Origin: Octopus sinensis
Taxonomy: Eukaryota
Direction: 5' to 3'
Assembly (NCBI RefSeq): GCF_006345805.1
Contig: NW_021825838.1
Location: forward strand, 1-15,892
Length of the DNA stretch: 15,892 nucleotides
Positions 2,401 to 15,892 of the stretch are shown here, one piece after another. The position numbers and the translations under genes are program-made. Position 1 is the first letter of the stretch. Each line of letters opens with the position of its first letter. Below the pieces are notes generated by a model, which saw nothing but the letters and a program-made list of their open reading frames with translations, did no database searches and was not told the origin of the DNA.

Positions 2401-2908
2401 ATACATGCACCCGGCGATTTTTAATAGCCTAGTATTCCTTCAAACTATCTACACCTGTACCTGGCCAGATATTTATTTATCTCTGCTAGAGAAAAATGAA
2501 TGATGCTACACCAATTTTTTTAGCTTGTATTAAATAATTTTGACCTCATAACCCATTAAAATAATTGCTGTGTTTTGAACTTATCTCTCTGCTTTTATAT
2601 AAAATATTGCGTGTGTAGGCATGTATAAATTCATATAAAGAGAGATATTTTAAAAGTGTCCCGTATATATTGTTTTCTAATCTGGCAACCCTATCCAAAC
2701 ATGTCCCTTATGAGCCTATACAATTGATGATACAGCATAGAATTCACACTTGATCAATGTATGATAAAAGTTACACATTTCTCCAAACTAATCTACAATA
2801 AATGTTTGTTTTGAAGTTATATAATTTGATGGCATTTTTTAATATACAAAATACCAGATATTTCAAAAAATAACTCTTAGCACCTTTTCAAACTCCACCA
2901 GCCTAATA

Positions 2909-3220
2909 TCAGAAAACAGCACAGCTCCAATGACTTTCGGAAACATTTTTTCACGCTAAGAATTGCTGAAGCATGGACCAAACTTCCGGCATCAGTTGTT
3001 AGTTGTTGGAGCACTGCATCCTTCAAAACTTCCATGCTTCCTTAGATTCGCCAACACTACACCTGATTTTCTCCCCTCCATACACACGCAAGCATGTATC
3101 TGACTCATACACTGTTCACTTCCCAGACATTTGTACATTACTGCATATACTTTATACGCACTTTTGACAAGTTGTTGTGCACCTGAGCACTGTATACAAT
3201 AATTTCATTATTATTATTAT
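2909..3220 (+). mobile_element. CR1-like LINE 3' end with (ATT)n tail, 5'-truncated
   Basis: Encodes RKQHSSNDFRKHFFTLRIAEAWTKLPASVVSC, the typical CR1 ORF2 end (FFxxRxxxxWNxLP). It ends in cattattattattat and matches the reverse complement of 12265-12555. Confidence 0.85.
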
Positions 3221-3499
3221 AGATGCTAAGGTGCAGTGATGAGAGATAAATAAATGGATAAGTTTGTTCATTAAATGCTAATGATGGTGGTTATCTAGTG
3301 AATATGTGACGGATCTAGTTAGTAGATGGTAACCATGTGAGAGTGAATGTGTGGAAAATATATTTCCCAGTCACTGATAAAATGTGAGAATATAACAATG
3401 GTAGGAAATTCTCAACAGAACTGAACAGCAGAGGGTCTTCAGAGTCAAAACCCCACTGAGGCAAGTCTTTTGCTCCCTAACTTGTTACATTCTACCAAC

Positions 3500-3870: not shown

Positions 3871-4345
3871 GTATGTGTGTGTGTATTGTGGTTAGTGACT
3901 AAATTATAGTGATGTTTATGTTTGATCTGTTCTAACGGTCATGACACTCGTGAACACTAATTTCCTAAATAGATCTACTCAGTGAAGGGTGACCTAGGCC
4001 TAAACAACAGTGACTTATCATGTTTCCTAAGACAGTACAACGTTATGATCCAGTATTTGGTAGTTTAGCATTTTACATAATACTTGAAGGTGGACGAGCT
4101 GAAGTCTGTGCATATGTGGACATTACACAAGGTTGTATAATATAATTGTAATAACAAAATAAATTTTAAAGACTAATTATTGGGGTAAAAGTTTCTTTCC
4201 ACAGTTTATCATTATCATATCACCTGAAAGGTTCAGCTTCCTCTTTTCATCATTTCATGTCTGACGTCCATACTGGAGCAGTTTGATGGTTTGAGCAGGG
4301 CTGGCAAACTGCAGAGCTACAGCACCCTCCTGTCTGATTTATGAT

Positions 4346-4975
4346 TTCTTCTTCTTCGTCTTCTTACAGCATTCACCCGGGGTAGGTTGAGCTGGCTTCA
4401 TTCATCCTCAATGTTGCATCTCTCACAAACGCTGACCAGGCCTGGCGATTTGAGGCTAACGACCTCGTGATCTCCAACCACTCCTTATTTCAGCGGCGAA
4501 CGGCGTAGATATGGGGGCCTAGGTTGGGTTCCAGATCAGCCAGGTTTTTCGTTGTCCACCACATCGCTTTCGCCAACCCTGAAGGGGAGCTGGGGCAATT
4601 GCTTCGTAGGTTGGGTTCCAGATCAGCTTTGACTGTCATCAGCCAGGTTTTTCATTGTCCACCACAACACTTTCGCCAACCCTGAAGGGGAGCTGGGGCA
4701 ATTGCTTCATAGGTTGGGTTCCAGATCAGCCTTGACTGTCATCAGCCAGGTTTTTCGTTGTCCACCACATCGCTTTCACCAACCCTGAAGGGGAGCTGGG
4801 GCAATTGCTTTGTAGATGAATTCTGGTTGATGACGGAGGGCATGACCCAGCCAACGCAGACGTCTCGTTAGGATGACTTGTCGGAGGGAGGTGATTCTGC
4901 ACTGGTGTCGCACCGAATTGTCAGAGACAAAGTGATGCCATCGGACACGAAGGATGCGGCATAGACACTTCACAG
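4346..4975 (-). mobile_element. RTE-clade LINE 3' fragment with (AAG)n tail and an internal tandem triplication
   Basis: ORF 4776-4973 gives KCLCRILRVRW...RRLRWLGHALR, an RTE ORF2 C-terminal motif. The ORF end reads ...RDATLRMNEASSTYPG* near 4375-4425, followed by an AAG-repeat tail (plus strand ttcttcttcttcgtcttctt). Confidence 0.85.
4521..4813. repeat. Three tandem copies (87, 103 and 103 bp) of part of the LINE ORF2 3' region
   Basis: aggttgggttccagatcagc starts at 4521, 4608 and 4711. The first copy lacks 16 bp between two atcagc motifs. Confidence 0.92.
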
Positions 4976-5269
4976 GGTACTTTTATGTGAATCCACGTAC
5001 TTGCAATTTCACTTTGATGAAGAACAATCACAAGTGCTTGGGGCCACCAGGGGGATGAGTCTGAACATTTCTGCTGTGGAGTATGGGTCTTTATCATATC
5101 ACCAGAAAAGTACTCTGTCCTGACTTTGCTCATCCACACTTCTTCCATCTACTTTGAAAGATCGGCAATTCTTTACAGAACTGTTTTTGTCCGGCTGAGT
5201 TGTTAAGGTAAATGTTTATCTCAATAAAAGTGAGTCTGTATATTTTAAGTAGTTTCTACATTTTACACT

Positions 5270-5290
5270 GTTGTTTCTCTATAATTTCAG
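5270..5290 (+). promoter_or_regulatory. Putative 3' splice acceptor of the ZNF exon
   Basis: gttgtttctctataatttcAG has a pyrimidine tract plus CAG and is identical in the paralog at 15487-15507. Confidence 0.65.
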
Positions 5291-5307
5291 AACGTCAGGT
5301 GACAGAA

Positions 5308-8300
5308 CATCATCATCTTCATTGTTCGTCCGTGGTCGAGACAATGGAATTTACCATGCTATGCCAGACTTCACGGTCCATCATAGCATTACGGAGGTCC
5401 TGTTGCTGGATGCTTGTATCCCTGGAGATTACATCAGGGTAGGAGAGTGTGCACCCTCTGGTATCGCGACCGTGGTCGAGACAATGGAATTTACCATGCT
5501 ACGCCAGACTTCACGGTCCATCATAGCATTACAGAGGTCCTGCTGCTGGATGCATGTATCCCTGGAGATTACATCAGGGTAGGAGAGTGTGCACCCTCTG
5601 GTATCGCGACCGTGGTCGAGACAATGGAATTTACCATGCTATGCCAGACTTCACGGTCCATCATAGCATTACGGAGGTCCTGTTGCTGGATGCATGTATC
5701 CCTGGAGATTACATCAGGGTAGGAGAGTGTGCACCCTCTGGTATCGCGACCGTGGTCGAGACAATGGAATTTACCATGCTACACCAGACTTCACGGTCCA
5801 TCATAGCATTACGGAGGTCCTGTTGCTGTATGCCTGTATCCCTGGAGATTACATCAGGGTAGGAGAGTGTGCACCCTCTGGTATCGCGACCGTGGTCGAG
5901 ACAATGGAATTTACCATGCTACGCCAGACTTCACGGTCCATCATAGCATTATGGAGGTCCTGTTGCTGGATGCATGTATCCCTGGAGATTACATCAGGGT
6001 AGGAGAGTGTGCACCCTCTGGTATCGCGACCGTGGTCAAGACAATGGGATTTACCATGCTACGCCAGACTTCACGGTCCATCATAGCATTACAGAGGTCC
6101 TGCTGCTGGATGCATGTATCCCTGGAGATTACATCAGGGTAGGAGAGTGTGCACCCTCTGGTATCGCGACCGTGGTCAAGACAATGGGATTTACCATGCT
6201 ACGCCAGACTTCACAGTCCATCATAGCATTACGGAGGTCTGTTGCTGGATGCATGTATCCCTGGAGATTACATCAGGGTAGGAGAGTGTGCACCCTCTGG
6301 TATCGCGACCGTGGTCAAGACAATGGGATTTACCATGCTACGCCAGACTTCACAGTCCATCATAGCATTACGGAGGTCCTGTTGCTGGATGCATGTATCC
6401 CTGGAGATTACATCAGGGTAGGAGAGTGTGCACCTCTGGTATCGCGACCGTGGTCAAGACAATGGGATTTACCATGCTACGCCAGACTTCACAGTCCATC
6501 ATAGCATTACGGAGGTCCTGTTGCTGGATGCATGTATCCCTGGAGATTACATCAGGGTAGGAGAGTGTGCACCCTCTGGTATCGCGACCGTGGTCAAGAC
6601 AATGGGATTTACCATGCTACGCCAGACTTCACAGTCCATCATAGCATTACGGAGGTCCTGTTGCTGGATGCATGTATCCTGGAGATTACATCAGGGTAGG
6701 AGAGTGTGCACCCTCTGGTATCGCGACCGTGGTCAAGACAATGGGATTTACCATGCTACGCCAGACTTCACAGTCCATCATAGCATTACGGAGGTCCTGT
6801 TGCTGGATGCATGTATCCCTGGAGATTACATCAGGGTAGGAGAGTGTGCACCCTCTGGTATCGCGACCGTGGTCAAGACAATGGGATTTACCATGCTACG
6901 CCAGACTTCACAGTCCATCATAGCATTACGGAGGTCCTGTTGCTGGATGCATGTATCCCTGGAGATTACATCAGGGTAGGAGAGTGTGCACCCTCTGGTA
7001 TCGCGACCGTGGTCGAGACAATGGAATTTACCATGCTACGCCAGACTTCACGGTCCATCATAGCATTATGGAGGTCCTGTTGCTGGATGCATGTATCCCT
7101 GGAGATTACATCAGGGTAGGAGAGTGTGCACCCTCTGGTATCGCGACCGTGGTCAAGACAATGGGATTTACCATGCTACGCCAGACTTCACAGTCCATCA
7201 TAGCATTACGGAGGTCCTGTTGCTGGATGCATGTATCCCTGGAGATTACATCAGGGTAGGAGAGTGTGCACCCTCTGGTATCGCGACCGTGGTCAAGACA
7301 ATGGGATTTACCATGCTACGCCAGACTTCACAGTCCATCATAGCATTACGGAGGTCCTGTTGCTGGATGCATGTATCCCTGGAGATTACATCAGGGTAGG
7401 AGAGTGTGCACCTCTGGTATCGCGACCGTGGTCAAGACAATGGGATTTACCATGCTACGCCAGACTTCACAGTCCATCATAGCATTACGGAGGTCCTGTT
7501 GCTGGATGCATGTATCCCTGGAGATTACATCAGGGTAGGAGAGTGTGCACCCTCTGGTATCGCGACCGTGGTCAAGACAATGGGATTTACCATGCTACGC
7601 CAGACTTCACAGTCCATCATAGCATTACGGAGGTCCTGTTGCTGGATGCATGTATCCCTGGAGATTACATCAGGGTAGGAGAGTGTGCACCCTCTGGTAT
7701 CGCGACCGTGGTCAAGACAATGGGATTTACCATGCTACGCCAGACTTCACAGTCCATCATAGCATTACGGAGGTCCTGTTGCTGGATGCATGTATCCCTG
7801 GAGATTACATCAGGGTAGGAGAGTGTGCACCCTCTGGTATCGCGACCGTGGTCAAGACAATGGGATTTACCATGCTACGCCAGACTTCACAGTCCATCAT
7901 AGCATTACGGAGGTCCTGTTGCTGGATGCATGTATCCCTGGAGATTACATCAGGGTAGGAGAGTGTGCACCCTCTGGTATCGCGACCGTGGTCAAGACAA
8001 TGGGATTTACCATGCTACGCCAGACTTCACAGTCCATCATAGCATTACGGAGGTCCTGTTGCTGGATGCATGTATCCCTGGAGATTACATCAGGGTAGGA
8101 GAGTGTGCACCCTCTGGTATCGCGACCGTGGTCAAGACAATGGGATTTACCATGCTACGCCAGACTTCACAGTCCATCATAGCATTACGGAGGTCCTGTT
8201 GCTGGATGCATGTATCCCTGGAGATTACATCAGGGTAGGAGAGTGTGCACCCTCTGGTATCGCGACCGTGGTCAAGACAATGGGATTTACCATGCTACGC

Positions 8301-9975
8301 CAGACTTCACAGTCCATCATAGCATTACGGAGGTCCTGTTGCTGGATGCATGTATCCCTGGAGATTACATCAGGGTAGGAGAGTGTGCACCCTCTGGTAT
8401 CGCGACCGTGGTCAAGACAATGGGATTTACCATGCTACGCCAGACTTCACAGTCCATCATAGCATTACGGAGGTCCTGTTGCTGGATGCATGTATCCTGG
8501 AGATTACATCAGGGTAGGAGAGTGTGCACCCTCTGGTATCGCGACCGTGGTCAAGACAATGGGATTTACCATGCTACGCCAGACTTCACAGTCCATCATA
8601 GCATTACGGAGGTCCTGTTGCTGGATGCATGTATCCCTGGAGATTACATCAGGGTAGGAGAGTGTGCACCCTCTGGTATCGCGACCGTGGTCAAGACAAT
8701 GGGATTTACCATGCTACGCCAGACTTCACAGTCCATCATAGCATTACGGAGGTCCTGTTGCTGGATGCATGTATCCCTGGAGATTACATCAGGGTAGGAG
8801 AGTGTGCACCCTCTGGTATCGCGACCGTGGTCAAGACAATGGGATTTACCATGCTACGCCAGACTTCACAGTCCATCATAGCATTACGGAGGTCCTGTTG
8901 CTGGATGCATGTATCCCTGGAGATTACATCAGGGTAGGAGAGTGTGCACCCTCTGGTATCGCGACCGTGGTCAAGACAATGGGATTTACCATGCTACGCC
9001 AGACTTCACAGTCCATCATAGCATTACGGAGGTCCTGTTGCTGGATGCATGTATCCCTGGAGATTACATCAGGGTAGGAGAGTGTGCACCCTCTGGTATC
9101 GCGACCGTGGTCAAGACAAGGGATTTACCATGCTACGCCAGACTTCACAGTCCATCATAGCATTACGGAGGTCCTGTTGCTGGATGCATGTATCCCTGGA
9201 GATTACATCAGGGTAGGAGAGTGTGCACCCTCTGGTATCGCGACCGTGGTCAAGACAATGGGATTTACCATGCTACGCCAGACTTCACGGTCCATCATAG
9301 CATTACGGAGGTCCTGTTGCTGGATGCATGTATCCCTGGAGATTACATCAGGGTAGGAGAGTGTGCGCCCTCTGGTATTGCAACTGTGGTCAAGACAATG
9401 GAATTTACCATGCTATGCCAGACTTCACGGTCCATCATAGTATTACGGAGGTCCTGTTGCTGGATGCCTGTATCCGTGGAGATTACATCAGAGTAGGAGA
9501 GTGTGTGCCCTCTGGTATCGCGAGTAGATGGCTTCCAGAGGAGAAGAGTAGAAATTGCCTCGTTTTCAGCTCTACAACAATGTCCAGCAAACTGGATTCT
9601 TCTACCTTTCACAAGAGATGACACAGGTGGTAGTTTCCCATATATTTGTACTTTGGTTGGATGACGCTTCCACGAGAGATTTTGAGCTCTCATAAGGAGG
9701 CGAGTGTAGGTTCCATCCAACCGCCTCTCAAGCTTCTTTGATAACGTCCAGGTTTATGAGCCATATAGTAGAATTGGTTCGACTGTGGCTTTGAAGATTT
9801 CAAGTTTGAAGTCTCTACTTAGATTTGATGACCAGATCTTATGCTTGTCATTACAGGCTGACCAGGCCATACCCTTTCTAGTTAGAAAGTATTTTCCAGT
9901 TGATGATATGTATGACCCAAGATATTTGTAATCAGAAACCATATTTAAGGGCACATTGTTGTTGTTGTTGTTGTT
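5308..9975 (-). mobile_element. 5'-truncated RTE-group LINE with its 3'-terminal 140 bp amplified 30-fold; 9-bp TSD GTGACAGAA (5299-5307 and 9976-9984)
   Basis: 9954 to 9524 encodes DYKYLGSYI...ATVEPILLYGS*TWTL...LDGTYTRLLM...RRIQFAGHC (RT thumb and C-terminus, one in-frame stop at 9754-9756). The frame continues into the array unit and ends ...SIVSTTDEQ* (TGA at 5319-5321) followed by a (GAT)n tail. The empty site is visible in the paralog at 15508-15545. Confidence 0.93.
5330..9523. repeat. Tandem array (satellite) of 30 x 140-bp units
   Basis: cgtggtc(g/a)agacaatgg recurs at 5331, 5471, 5611 ... 9245, 9385. Six units are 1 bp short. The central units are essentially identical. Confidence 0.98.
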
Positions 9976-9976
9976 G
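9956..9976. repeat. (TTG)7 microsatellite at the 5' junction of the LINE
   Basis: ttgttgttgttgttgttgttg lies between the LINE coding sequence and the right TSD, and is absent from the empty paralogous site. Confidence 0.9.
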
Positions 9977-10289
9977 TGACAGAAGAAGCAACCTCAGTAT
10001 CTACAATGTTTTAAAGACTAAAGGAAAATATCATAGAAAACAAACATATAATATTGTTTCTATAAATCTGTGAAAGAATTCGTTTGAAACATTTTGCTCT
10101 GAAATAATATTATTAGCCAAATTTCTGAACATTGCTGACTAGAGTGACAAGAAAAGAAGCTTGTGTGCAGATAAAGATTGGATAAAGTAGAAATTTATGT
10201 AAGCAATAAAGTAAAAAAACGAAGGCAGGAAAAATATATCAACTGGGATTTGAGAGGAAAAGTAAAAGAAATTGATTTCCCCTGAACGC

Positions 10290-10991
10290 ATGAGAAAAGA
10301 GATGAGATCATATGACTGTGATATCTGTACAAAGTCGTTCTCTTGGAAAAGTAACCTAATTATGCACAAACATACACATACAGGTGAGAAACTGTATCAT
10401 TGTGATATCTGTGGTAAATCATTCTCTCAAAGTAGTCACTTATCTACACACAAATATATTCATACAGGAGAGACACCCCATCACTGCGATATTTGTGGTA
10501 AATCATTCTCTCAAAATACAGCCTTAACAGAACACATACGTATTCATACAGGAGAGAAACCTTATCATTGTGATATCTGTGGTAAATCATTATCTGAAAA
10601 TTGTGACTTAACCAAACACATACGTATTCATACAGGAGAGAAACCATATCATTGTGATATCTGTGGTAAATCATTATCTGAAAATTGTGACTTAACCAAA
10701 CACATACGTACTCATACAGGAGAGAGACCTTATCATTGTGATGTCTGTGGTAAATCATTCTCTCAAAATACAGCCTTAACAGAACACATACGTACTCATA
10801 CAGGAGAGAGATCATGTTATTGTGATATTTGTGGTAAAACATTTTCTGAAAGTACTGCCTTAAGAAAGCACAATCGTATTCATACAGGAGAGAAGCCATA
10901 TCACTGTGTTATCTGCGGTAAATCATTCTCTGCAAATAGTAACTTCATGAGACACAAACTGATTCATACAGGGGTGAAAGGAAAAGGGTAG
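10290..10991 (+). CDS. C2H2 (Kruppel-type) zinc-finger protein with 8 tandem fingers
   Basis: Eight CxxC-x12-HxxxH units joined by TGEKP-like linkers. The first in-frame ATG is at 10290 (alternative 10302); the ORF-track start at 10272 is TTG. No effector domain is seen, and expression cannot be judged from the sequence. Confidence 0.9.
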
Positions 10992-12264: not shown

Positions 12265-12850
12265 AAATAATAATAATGAAATTATTGTATACAGTGCACA
12301 GGTGCACCACAACTTGTCAAAAAGTGCACCTAAAGTCTGGAAAGCAAACAATGTATGAGTCAGATAAATGCTTGTGTGTGTATGGAGGGGAGAAAATCAG
12401 GTGTAGTGTTGGCGAACCTCAGGAAGTTTTGAAGGATGCAGTGCTCCGACAACTAACAACTGATGCCGGCAGTTTGTTCCATGCTTCAGCAACTCTTAGT
12501 GTGAAATAAATGTTTCCGAAAGTCATGGAAGGATCTATGCTGTTTTCTGACTTTGTAAAGATGTCCACGGGTGTTAGACAGGTGGAGTTTGAAAAGGTGC
12601 TCAGAGTTATTGTTTGTAAGATGGTTAATAATTTTATGGGTGTCTGCCAAGTCAGCTGCCAGACGTCGGAGTTTCAATGTATCCTTGCCCAGGGATGTAA
12701 GGCATTCAGAATATGGCAAATACCTAATGGAGTGTATTCATTTGGTTGCACGTCGCTGAACGGCTTCCAGACGATTAATATCCTGGGCAAGATAGGGGTT
12801 CCAGACCGGTGATGCAAATTCCAGGTGCGGTGTTCTTTACTCATGTCACT
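12265..12850 (-). mobile_element. CR1-like LINE 3' fragment with (ATT)n tail
   Basis: The minus strand encodes WNPYLAQDINRLEAVQRRATK...LPYSECLTSLGKDTLKLRRLAADL...NTRGHLYKV...FRKH (CR1 ORF2 C-terminus, with frameshifts). The tail appears as aataataataatg at 12266, and the family is the same as 2909-3220. Confidence 0.88.
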
Positions 12851-13490: not shown

Positions 13491-13496
13491 CCAAAC

Positions 13497-15421
13497 GGTT
13501 AATATAGGGCGTAACAAATATCAGAAAATCAAAAAAAAAATGTGTGTAATAGGTGTAAAACAACTTCCTATGAACGAATATGAAAAAAAAAATTCGCGCA
13601 CGCGAAAGGGGGGTGGGGGAGAGTCCTCGGAAAATTCACATCGGGAAGTTCCGAAAGCGTCTGAGGGGCTGACCCGGGCACCAAAACAAAAAAAAAATAG
13701 TGTAATATGTGTAAAACAACTTGCTCTAAACGAATATGAAAAAAAAATGCTCTCTCGCGAAGAGGGGTGGGGGAGAGGCCTCGGAATATTTATATCGGGA
13801 ATTTCCGAAAGCGTCTGAACCGGGCACAAAAACAAAAACAAAAACAGCGTAATAGGTGTAAAACAACTTGCTCTAAACGACTATCATGAAAAAAATGCGC
13901 GCTCGCGAAAGGGGGGTGGGGGAGAGGCTTCGGAAATTTCACATCTTCAGTCCACGGCCTTTAAACTAAGAAAAAATAGTGTAATTGGTGTAAAACTACT
14001 TGTTCTAAACGAGTATCAAGAACACACACTCACACATGAATCATAAACTCCGTATTTCGCAAAAAAAAAAATAAAGAGAAGAAATTCTGGAAAAAGTGAA
14101 GAAATGTTGGATCTCATTCCTTGGTTAAAGCTATTTTAAACATTAAATTTATGCTTTTCTTTGAAATAGTTCAGATATATGCAATTCTTCTCACTTATTA
14201 AGATGCATTTATCAGAAAAAAAGAGACAGAAAAAATTATTATTTGTTGTCAATCCTTCCCTAATTATCCTTTATTAATTAGTTTTGGCGTGTATTTTTTT
14301 CCCAAATTTTTTTTTCACCTTTACAACACTGTTTAGTAAAGCAATTAATTATCTTTATAATTTGCATATTTGACTTATTAATCAAAATTCTCTAGATGTA
14401 ATATATACTAAGTAATGCATCCTTCATTTATGTGTTCCGTTCTGTATTATGCATGCATGACTGTTTGTATGTAAGTGTGTTTAACTGTGCACATGAATGT
14501 GAATATTAAAGAACATATTTATTTACTATGATTGTTATTTTCAGAACAAATAAATCTTTTGGCTGTTATGTTATTGATGTTATTATTATTGCTAGTTAAA
14601 GGGTGGTGACTTGGCTGAATATTTTGAGTCTTGTAGTATGTAGTTGTGTTAGTCAATATTCTGAGTTCAAATCCAACTCATTTCTTTATCATCATTATCG
14701 ATGGACCACTCAAAGAGGTATGTATACATTATCATTTTCGTAACATAATTTCTGTAGTATTTCAAGATGTTTCTGACACGTATTTTGATTCACATGGCGG
14801 AGATCCAACATTTCTTCACTTTTTCCAGAATTTCTTCTCTTTATTTTTTTTTTTGCGAAATACGGAGTTTATGATTCATGTGTGAGTGTGTGTTCTTGAT
14901 ACTCGTTTAGAACAAGTAGTTTTACACACAATTACACTATTTTTTCTTAGTTTAAAGGCCGTGGACTGAAGATGTGAAATTTCCGAAGCCTCTCCCCCAC
15001 CCCCCTTTCGCGAGCGCGCATTTTTTTCATGATAGTCGTTTAGAGCAAGTTGTTTTACACCTATTACGCTGTTTTTGTTTTTGTTTTTGTGCCCGGTTCA
15101 GACGCTTTCGGAAATTCCCGATATAAATATTCCGAGGCCTCTCCCCCACCCCTCTTTCTCGAGAGTGCATTTTTTTTTTCATATTCGTTTAGAGCAAGTT
15201 GTTTTACACATATTACACTATTTTTTTTTTGTTTTGGTGCCCGGGTCAGCCCCTCAGACGCTTTCGGAACTTCCCGATGTGAATTTTCCGAGGCCTCTCC
15301 CCCACCCCCCTTTCGCGTGCGCGAATTTTTTTTTTCATATTCGTTCATAGGAAGTTGTTTTACACCTATTACACACATTTTTTTTCTGATTTTCTGATAA
15401 TCGTAACGCCCTATATTAACC
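13497..15421. mobile_element. Foldback-like non-autonomous DNA element: about 620-bp inverted arms (13497-14115 and 14800-15421) around a 684-bp AT-rich spacer
   Basis: The arms are near-exact reverse complements from GGTTAATATAGGGCGT to gaaatgttggatctc. Each arm holds about three and a half 130-155-bp subrepeats (gtaat.gtgtaaaacaactt at about 13546, 13702, 13849, 13981). There is no transposase ORF. Confidence 0.85.
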
Positions 15422-15430
15422 TTTGTTCCT

Positions 15431-15892
15431 ACAGTTTATCTCAGAAATGAATCTGTATTTTTTAAGTAGCCTCTACATTTTACGCCGTTGTTTCTCTATA
15501 ATTTCAGAACATCAGATGACAGAAGAAGAATCCTAAATATCTACAAGGTTTTAAAGACTAAAGGAAAATATTATAGAAAACCGTTTCTACAAATTTGAGG
15601 AAGAATTCTTGTGAAACATTTGCTCTGAAATAATATTTTAGTCAAATTTCTAAACATCACAGACTATTGTGTCAAGAACTGGAGCATATGTGCCACTGGA
15701 ACTTGGATAAATTTAGGGATGTTTTGCTAAACAAAGACAACAGTAGAAGGAAATAGAGGAGAGAAGTGTAAGGAATAAAGTATAAAAACAAGAGCAAGAA
15801 AAATATATCAACTGGGATTTGAGAGGAAAAGAAATAGGAAAGAGAGAGAAAATTATTGAATTGATTTTCCCCTGAACACATGAGAAAATAGA
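15431..15892 (+). other. Intron end, splice acceptor (AG at 15506-15507) and 5' part of the exon of a second paralogous ZNF gene; fingers expected beyond the window
   Basis: Colinear similarity with 5214-5307 joined to 9985-10302 (ttaaagactaaaggaaaata; aaaatatatcaactgggatttgagaggaaaa; ttgattt(t)cccctgaac.catgagaaaa). Confidence 0.85.

What the first reader, a model, noticed from the sequence alone, without database searches (positions are those of the whole stretch)
5308..9975. A satellite formed inside one LINE copy: the last 140 coding bases of an RTE element repeated 30 times between intact TSDs
Seen: the 140-bp unit, read on the minus strand, is the direct in-frame continuation of the LINE ORF2 (...LLLWKPST|RDTRGHTLSY.DVIS.DTGIQQQDLRN.MMDREVW.SMVNSIV.TT). 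The real terminus (DEQ*, then the GAT tail) appears only once, after the last unit. The whole 4.67 kb lies between two copies of GTGACAGAA. The unit junction has near-microhomology (native end acgg-ACG-aac versus unit start ctac-TCG-cga). Inference: this is a complete record of a LINE 3' end turning into a satellite, seeded either by reiterated copying or template jumping of the RT at the RNA 3' end, or by a microhomology duplication later expanded by unequal exchange. TE-derived satellites are known in general, but a fully bracketed case with an empty paralogous site is unusually clear.
Basis: partly seen in the sequence, partly recalled or inferred. Interest (0 to 1): 0.8.

Follow-up and report, generated by a model that had tools for sequence, protein, structure and literature searches.

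The report
LINE-end repeat spreading between retrotransposon copies
In what is likely an octopus genome, a 140-base piece from the end of a common retrotransposon is repeated head-to-tail with the same junction inside about 45 separate copies crowded on a few small chromosomes, and it likely spread from copy to copy by DNA recombination after they had inserted, which would show how a new satellite seeds itself at many sites.

Summary
In detail: 30 units of 140 bp from the coding end of a 5'-truncated RTE-like LINE lie between 9-bp TSDs, with an empty paralogous site. It is not a one-off birth. The same 3-bp (TCG) junction occurs in about 45 independent insertions with 2 to ~98 units. Of 36 placed ones, 31 lie on three small chromosomes and 1 on chromosomes 1-13, although single-unit copies are genome-wide. 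Arrays sit in several LINE subfamilies, their junction units often differ from the host's first unit, neighbouring arrays share rare variants, and 5' truncation is not shifted as array-bearing RNA would require. Best reading: one microhomology duplication made the junction, ectopic gene conversion likely copied it into already inserted copies nearby, and unequal exchange expanded it. Near-identical paralogues of the window's insertion carry 3-5 units, so 30 is a late local expansion; reads could not confirm the count. A second LINE family in the same window shows the same pattern (103-bp unit, overlapping chromosomes). No insertion was caught in both single and arrayed states, so conversion remains inferred.

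The parts
5299..5307 (.). target-site duplication, copy at the element's 3' end
5308..5329 (-). native LINE terminus and (TGA/GAT)n tail; the T>A change here is private to this insertion's paralogues
5330..9523 (-). 30 x 140-bp array of the LINE's coding end
5467..5469 (-). TCG microhomology at the last unit junction; 287 of 290 junctions scored across loci have the same spacing
6170..9243 (-). recently amplified block: 20 units share one haplotype (0-1 substitutions); the array's six units with a 1-bp deletion lie here
9384..9523 (-). first unit, in frame with the LINE body; the frame runs on into unit 2 and stops after VAIPEGAHSPTLM
9524..9961 (-). 5'-truncated LINE body (438 bp; one in-frame stop near 9754)
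9962..9975 (-). (AAC)n run at the 5' junction, variable in length among paralogues
9976..9984 (.). target-site duplication, copy at the element's 5' end
10266..10991 (+). C2H2 zinc-finger ORF (8 fingers) of the likely host gene; the insertion lies just after an inferred splice acceptor at 5289-5290
   Evidence: acceptor read from the sequence, not tested
15516..15524 (+). empty target site in a diverged tandem paralogue
4535..4810 (-). 103-bp x 2.7 array in a second RTE-like LINE (about 4340-5150) with a CTA-microhomology junction shared across the genome: the replicate case

Best explanation
The array is one of about 45 arrays that share a single TCG junction inside independent RTE-like LINE insertions, and the junction was likely copied into those insertions after they had landed, by ectopic gene conversion from nearby array-bearing copies, and then expanded by unequal exchange. 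Step 1 (junction shown, origin inferred): a rare duplication between two TCG triplets 140 bp apart made a dimer in one copy. Step 2 (inferred): when a single-unit copy is broken and repaired from an array-bearing neighbour, synthesis runs through the junction and re-anneals one or more units out of register. The host keeps its own TSD, 5' end, body and first-unit start but gains junction units. Step 3 (clustering shown, cause inferred): donors are mostly nearby, so arrays stay confined to a recombination-prone territory (C27, C29, C20 and a few spots elsewhere). Step 4 (shown by paralogues): arrays grow locally, here from 3-5 units to 30, elsewhere to about 98. The window's insertion was also duplicated with its zinc-finger gene into 7 places.
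For: (a) The junction is fixed: 136 exact and 301 degenerate hits against 0 for the control; 287 of 290 scored junctions have identical spacing. (b) Insertions are independent: 45 events after collapsing 12 duplicates among 57 loci; 14 of 45 have a strict TSD and all 14 differ (chance 39 of 1,640; singles 11 of 26). (c) Territory: 1 of 36 placed events is on C1-13 against 45 of 76 placed tail-selected controls (p 1e-9); C27 19, C29 8, C20 4 against 2 of 76 controls. (d) Host/junction discordance: unit position 5 agrees between first and junction units in 10 of 35 scored events. (e) The junction allele is regional: A-type in 7 of 8 C29 sites against 4 of 24 other placed sites (p 0.0007). (f) Bodies span the same subfamily haplotypes as single copies; the tree needs 17 changes (shuffled mean 20.5) and one clade has p-AU 0.0499. 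(g) 5' truncation is not shifted: median body 241 bp (n=45) against 187 bp (n=39), p 0.30; 4 of 45 lack a body against 12 of 35 expected for a 2-unit RNA (p 0.0096) and 23 of 35 for 3 units (p 1e-7). (h) Rare non-CpG unit alleles are shared between independent insertions within 1 Mb: 15 against 4.9 expected (permutation p 0.0003; capped-unit version 10 against 3.8, p 0.019). The 12 neighbour pairs checked have unrelated 3' flanks, and bodies show no significant excess. (i) Paralogues of the window's one insertion differ at family-diagnostic sites (9 of 39 differences against 21 of 423 sites, p 2.5e-5), as conversion by other copies predicts. (j) A second family repeats the pattern: 0 of 25 placed arrays are on C1-13, while 99 of its 258 single copies are on C1-8.
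Against: No insertion was found in both single and arrayed states; all 7 paralogues of the window's insertion carry arrays. Two arrays on different chromosomes (C27:20.71, C29:16.54) share unit-by-unit variants, which a common source RNA explains as easily. Second units are only slightly less diverged than single units (0.95% against 1.2%), so late acquisition is not shown by age. The tree has no strongly supported branch and the AU result is marginal. The body-sharing test has little power (17 shared alleles in all). Position 5 is a CpG, and diagnostic sites may be mutation hotspots. The truncation test assumes truncation depends on distance from the tail. The first 25 fetched loci were found with a G-type pattern, which inflates G-type counts in (d).
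Confidence: 0.6

Rival explanations
1. Array-bearing source elements retrotransposed as a subfamily (like the SVA VNTR or mouse L1 monomers, recalled). Arrays collapsed to one unit outside a few regions and persisted or grew inside them.
For: The ORF survives with 13 new residues, so an array-bearing source could stay coding. The C27:20.71 and C29:16.54 arrays share unit-order variants. Units are about as diverged as single copies. Array flanks hold about twice as many other tandem repeats (17.8 against 8.3 per 100 kb; control pieces were shorter).
Against: Bodies fall in several subfamilies. 5' truncation is not shifted. Neighbours share unit alleles. The longest array-bearing body found is about 1.3 kb. 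Nearly complete collapse on C1-13 would be needed, yet a different 216-bp x 3 tandem persists at C18:3.5 Mb.
Confidence: 0.15
2. The RT built the arrays during insertion by switching between LINE mRNA and a short or arrayed RNA at the TCG site, possibly a chromatin-bound RNA near its source.
For: Both breakpoints lie in predicted hairpins, one of them the terminal stem-loop. Switching would explain mixed bodies and first-unit discordance. Several loci show other rearranged 5' parts.
Against: The hairpin z-scores are only about -1.7. It does not predict unshifted truncation. Clustering and neighbour sharing need local retroposition, which I do not know of for LINEs (own knowledge). No Rfam family above threshold lies in the units, and I found no splice-compatible junction by eye.
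Confidence: 0.12
3. Extrachromosomal circles looped out of arrays re-integrated by homology into single-unit copies; this is a DNA-level variant of the best explanation.
For: It gives the same fixed junction, discordance and unshifted truncation, and was proposed beside interlocus conversion for Rsp-like spread (PMC7403614, passages).
Against: Free circles should not prefer targets within 1 Mb, and every array examined lies inside a LINE end.
Confidence: 0.09
4. One reading: the junction arose independently in this copy from its own sequence, and likewise in each other copy.
For: This copy's first and junction units agree at position 5. De novo 3' tandems with other breakpoints do occur (1 of 40 controls).
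Against: It needs the same 3-bp breakpoint about 45 times, and 25 of 35 scored events are discordant with their host.
Confidence: 0.04

Closest known systems
[quoted passage not shown]
   Same: A rare microhomology junction shared by many loci; spread into pre-existing homologous repeats by proposed interlocus conversion or eccDNA; the repeat next to the junction is discordant with its host; local expansion by unequal exchange.
   Different: There an unrelated satellite enters satellite clusters on one chromosome. Here the landing pads are dispersed single LINE copies with TSDs and 5' truncations as internal markers, the unit comes from the landing pad itself, and two families do it in overlapping chromosomes.
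LINE-derived satellites: common cetacean satellite (L1 3' part), chicken HinfI (CR1 3' UTR and ORF2 part), Phodopus PROsat (as listed in review PMC9659126; passages)
   Same: The monomer is homologous to a LINE 3' or ORF segment.
   Different: Those are described as satellite families by similarity to the element. Here arrays of 2 to ~98 units still sit inside their host insertions, and the spreading step can be analysed.
Elements that carry internal tandem repeats: oyster Helentron central repeats (PMC7492417, search listing; passage in PMC9659126); SVA VNTR and mouse L1 5' monomers (recalled)
   Same: Short, variable-length arrays at a fixed position in a mobile element.
   Different: Those arrays move with the element. 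Here bodies are mixed, truncation is unshifted and the distribution is regional.
Non-allelic gene conversion among transposable-element copies (human LTRs, PMC4921805, search listing only); repair-driven change of tandem-repeat number (Paques, Leung and Haber 1998, title seen only in a reference list)
   Same: The proposed mechanism.
   Different: Here the converted allele is a length-gaining junction that turns each recipient into a new donor.
RTE-2_OV of Octopus vulgaris (PMC9115989; passages)
   Same: An RTE-clade LINE with endonuclease and RT in one ORF, in an octopus.
   Different: It has 1,109 aa and UTRs of about 600 nt. This family's stop codon runs straight into the tail and its relatives have about 1,045 aa. 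The word 'tandem' does not occur in that paper's main text. The sequences were not compared.

Membership tests
RTE-clade LINE | APE endonuclease and RT in one long ORF | tested here: met
   Copy L116 has Exo_endo_phos and RVT_1 in broken frames; relative P0004 (1,046 aa) has both. An upstream ORF1 was not looked for.
RTE-clade LINE | 3' end in short tandem repeats, TSDs, 5' truncation | tested here: met
   (TGA)n tail, 9-bp TSD, varied 5' ends
RTE-clade LINE | RT phylogeny places it in the RTE clade | not tested
   No named reference set was available; 'RTE-like' rests on anatomy and recalled C-terminal motifs
TE-derived satellite | head-to-tail monomers homologous to part of a TE | tested here: met
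TE-derived satellite | long arrays free of the parent element | tested here: inconclusive
   All 57 loci examined lie in LINE ends; the largest has about 98 units. Pattern lists were cut at 100 places, so unlisted arrays were not seen.
TE-derived satellite | heterochromatic or centromeric location | not testable with these tools
   no chromatin or cytological data
Element-borne VNTR (array moves with the element) | array-bearing copies form one lineage | tested here: not met
   several body haplotypes; 17 changes on the tree; p-AU 0.0499, marginal
Element-borne VNTR (array moves with the element) | dispersed like the family, with truncation shifted by array length | tested here: not met
Rsp-like/1.688-type spread | same microhomology junction at many loci | tested here: met
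Rsp-like/1.688-type spread | junction repeat discordant with its host | tested here: met
   25 of 35 scored events
Rsp-like/1.688-type spread | recipient present without the array at the orthologous site in sister species | not testable with these tools
   no relative assemblies; laid contigs do not span the array
Rsp-like/1.688-type spread | extrachromosomal circles of the repeat | not testable with these tools
   needs circle-enriched sequencing
Ribozyme-bearing tandem retroelements (retrozymes, recalled) | hammerhead or similar ribozyme in the unit | tested here: not met
   Rfam on 5250-5900 gave one chance-level hit (18 bits against 47)

The most novel reading that the evidence does not exclude
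A tandem junction behaves as a protein-free, self-propagating element. Each LINE copy it converts becomes a new donor, repair adds units, and it sweeps through dispersed retrotransposon copies inside one hyper-recombining nuclear compartment formed by a few small chromosomes, some with zinc-finger clusters. Two unrelated LINE families have been taken over in overlapping chromosomes, so the arrays map that compartment and catch satellite families at the multi-locus seeding stage.
Probability: 0.35. Interest if true: 0.82.

Novelty: new variant of a known kind. Interest (0 to 1): 0.63.

Why it matters
How a new tandem repeat gets from one locus to many is an open question in satellite evolution, and the intermediate steps are usually erased. 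Here every recipient keeps its own TSD, 5' truncation point and subfamily marks, so transposition and recombination make different, testable predictions, and the data lean to recombination. If right, dispersed TE copies act as landing pads for their own tandem derivative, and the arrays mark genome regions with high ectopic exchange. It also warns that TE subfamily and age estimates in such regions are blurred by conversion. No function for the host is claimed.

Tried and rejected
Reads: four runs under four coded organism labels were laid on paralogue L033. All are assembled contigs. Pieces cross the 5' junction of this insertion in X1-X3 and the 3' junction in X3 and X7, but none spans the array, so they say nothing on copy number or on a single-unit state; depth was not used. 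Back-splicing or circular RNA: I found no GT-AG placement that gives the junction on either strand (by eye). Ribozyme: no Rfam support. Segmental duplication as the cause of the shared junction: true for 12 of 57 loci, which were collapsed; neighbour flanks are unrelated in 12 of 12 pairs checked. Assembly artefact for the arrays in general: rejected, since most arrays are internally diverged. For the window's count of 30 it stays possible (my estimate about 0.2): the contig is short and unplaced, 20 units are near-identical (polishing could homogenise them), and 6 units carry 1-bp deletions. Age test: not discriminating. Zinc-finger clusters as the cause of the territory: only 9 of 40 array loci had a zinc-finger linker in their 10-kb stretch, against 0 of 62 shorter single-copy stretches; suggestive only. 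The first tail-pattern control gave 6 hits and was not used. The C29 test printed wrongly included contig C2979; the corrected test is. Rows left out: the tree used 67 rows with at least 220 bp of body and one or two representatives per duplicated insertion, CpG columns dropped; L126 was left out of the truncation controls; the proximity test used 33 placed events. Look-ups of earlier findings gave nothing relevant. The 1998 repair paper is not held in the library, so only its title was seen.
Full report
Observation. The window is a whole unplaced contig, G000:C2309, of a 2.72-Gb genome. The most identical named relative listed for the adjacent zinc-finger ORF is an Octopus protein (P0127, 61%), so the organism is likely an octopus. 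The array is real: 30.0 units of 140 bp at 5330-9523 between two copies of a 9-bp TSD, with one tail. The first unit continues a frame that is 73% identical to the C-terminus of an endonuclease + RT protein. A diverged tandem paralogue shows the empty site. The family terminus is TTVEQ*, so the two breakpoints share a perfect TCG; the DEQ* seen here is private to this insertion's paralogues.

This insertion is itself multi-copy. Six places carry its 3' junction and a seventh, C27:11.63, carries its 5' junction with a deleted 3' end. The five other complete copies hold 3, 3, 4, 5 and 5 units. The two closest, with bodies 1.1-1.8% different, hold 3 and 5. In the window, 20 units share one haplotype with 0-1 substitutions. 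So 30 is a late expansion of an older array of a few units, or partly an assembly effect; contigs laid on paralogue L033 could not tell.

The junction is not private. An exact 22-mer across it has 136 hits and a degenerate 20-mer 301, both with 0 for the reversed control. A junction-plus-terminus pattern gives 44 sites against 2,889 single-unit copies (both lower bounds). I fetched 57 array loci and collapsed 12 as duplicates by shared flanks or TSD, leaving 45 events with 2 to about 98 units (one has a single unit plus an 8-bp junction remnant); some unplaced ones may be alleles of placed ones. Their 5' ends differ, and 14 of 45 have a strict TSD, all different (chance 39 of 1,640). Of 290 junctions scored, 287 have the same spacing.

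The arrays are regional. Of 36 placed events, C27 has 19, C29 8 and C20 4, and C10, C14, C19, C26 and C30 have one each; the window's insertion also has three paralogues on C18. These three chromosomes are 2.6% of the genome. Two tail-selected controls put 45 of 76 placed copies on C1-13 and 2 of 76 on C20, C27 and C29. I fetched 40 of the 85 control sites: none had the junction, and one had a 216-bp tandem with another breakpoint. By arithmetic from these calls, roughly a fifth of C27 copies may be arrayed (wide error). One paper reports C2H2 clusters on chromosomes 14, 27, 28 and 30 of O. sinensis (PMC9795677, passages); I did not check whether that numbering matches G000.

Four tests separate the mechanisms. 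First, origin from the host's own sequence or RNA predicts matching first and junction units. They match at position 5 in 10 of 35 scored events, and the junction allele is regional (A in 7 of 8 C29 sites against 4 of 24 others). Second, a mobile master predicts one body lineage. Bodies span the same haplotypes as single copies; the weakly resolved tree needs 17 changes against 20.5 shuffled (29 of 500 as low), and one clade has p-AU 0.0499. Third, an array already in the RNA should use up reverse transcription. Array-bearing bodies are not shorter (median 241 against 187 bp, p 0.30), and 4 of 45 lack a body against 12 of 35 expected for two units and 23 of 35 for three. Fourth, DNA exchange predicts sharing between neighbours. 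Rare non-CpG unit alleles are shared 15 times within 1 Mb against 4.9 expected (p 0.0003; 10 against 3.8, p 0.019 with units capped), with no excess at whole-chromosome scale. The 12 pairs checked have unrelated 3' flanks, and bodies show no significant excess, though with only 17 shared alleles. Separately, paralogues of the window's single insertion differ at family-diagnostic sites far more often than chance (9 of 39 against 21 of 423), which suggests conversion by other copies.

Against this reading: no insertion was seen in both states; one cross-chromosome pair shares unit-order variants; unit divergence (0.95-1.36%) is close to that of single copies (1.2%); position 5 is a CpG; and the first 25 fetched loci were ascertained with a G-type pattern. 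Both breakpoints fall in predicted hairpins, one of them the terminal stem-loop, but the z-scores are about -1.7.

A replicate lies in the same window. A second RTE-like LINE carries a 103-bp tandem at 4535-4810 with a CTA microhomology. Its junction has 350 hits; of 15 loci examined, 13 have flanks unlike the window's and 2 are its paralogues. A junction-plus-end pattern finds 35 arrays: 25 placed (C27 7, C29 6, C28 4, C14 3, C19 2, C24, C26 and C30 one each), none on C1-13; the shorter junction pattern adds one at the tip of C4. Of 258 single copies, 99 lie on C1-8 (p 1.3e-5). The truncation and sharing tests were not run on this family.

Mechanism. One microhomology duplication made the junction; the A-type is most simply a CpG change in a donor. 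Repair of a broken single-unit copy from an array-bearing neighbour, with out-of-register re-annealing, would add junction units while leaving TSD, body and first-unit start in place, and would make a new donor. Unequal exchange then expands arrays. The junction identity, clustering, discordance, neighbour sharing and local expansion are shown; the repair pathway and the cause of the territory are inferred. Out-of-register repair of tandem donors is from my own knowledge; I saw only the title of the 1998 yeast paper.

Known systems and novelty. It works like Rsp-like spreading into 1.688 clusters (PMC7403614, passages), and it belongs among LINE-derived tandem repeats (PMC9659126, passages). 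It fails the tests for an element-borne VNTR. Paper searches listed no report of these arrays or of a junction spreading between LINE copies; most subscription papers are not covered. Of the O. vulgaris repeat annotation I read part 1 of 3 and passages (PMC13282606), not its supplement, whose library might list the repeat. Verdict: a new variant of a known kind, interest 0.63.

Noticed in passing
window 4340-5150 (array 4535-4810): Second RTE-like LINE with a 103-bp tandem whose junction recurs at 350 places, in chromosomes overlapping those of the 140-bp arrays; one array at C27:14.78 Mb runs at least 6.6 kb.
   Followed up: partly
G000:C29 about 16.024-16.038 Mb (L166, L103): Largest 140-bp array found, about 98 units, A-type junction, with an 11-bp TSD candidate.
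   Followed up: partly
L126 (G000:C18:3.51 Mb): Independent 3'-end tandem of the same LINE with a different breakpoint, 3 x about 216 bp.
   Followed up: partly
window 13494-15424: Foldback-like element with about 620-bp inverted arms (98-100% complementary) built of 156-bp subrepeats; not found in the aligned C27 paralogue and arranged differently in C4842.
   Followed up: partly
window 9962-9975 and paralogues: (AAC)n microsatellite formed at the LINE's 5' junction, of different length in different paralogues.
   Followed up: no
L031 and L033, left flank (window 4775-5105 equivalent): Both near-identical paralogues carry an extra copy of an approximately 340-bp block that is single in the window.
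   Followed up: no
L075, L087, L089, L102, L109, L110: Several array loci have a second, same-orientation piece of the same LINE directly upstream or nearby.
   Followed up: no
homologue list: The closest relatives of this LINE's protein (up to 82% identical) come almost all from unnamed metagenome or read assemblies, with no cephalopod name among the 120 listed; horizontal transfer is possible but untested.
   Followed up: no
window 12489-12810 (-) and 2864-3221 (+): Fragments of a further repeated element, LINE-like by eye, occur twice in opposite orientation; the one piece scanned had no Pfam match.
   Followed up: no
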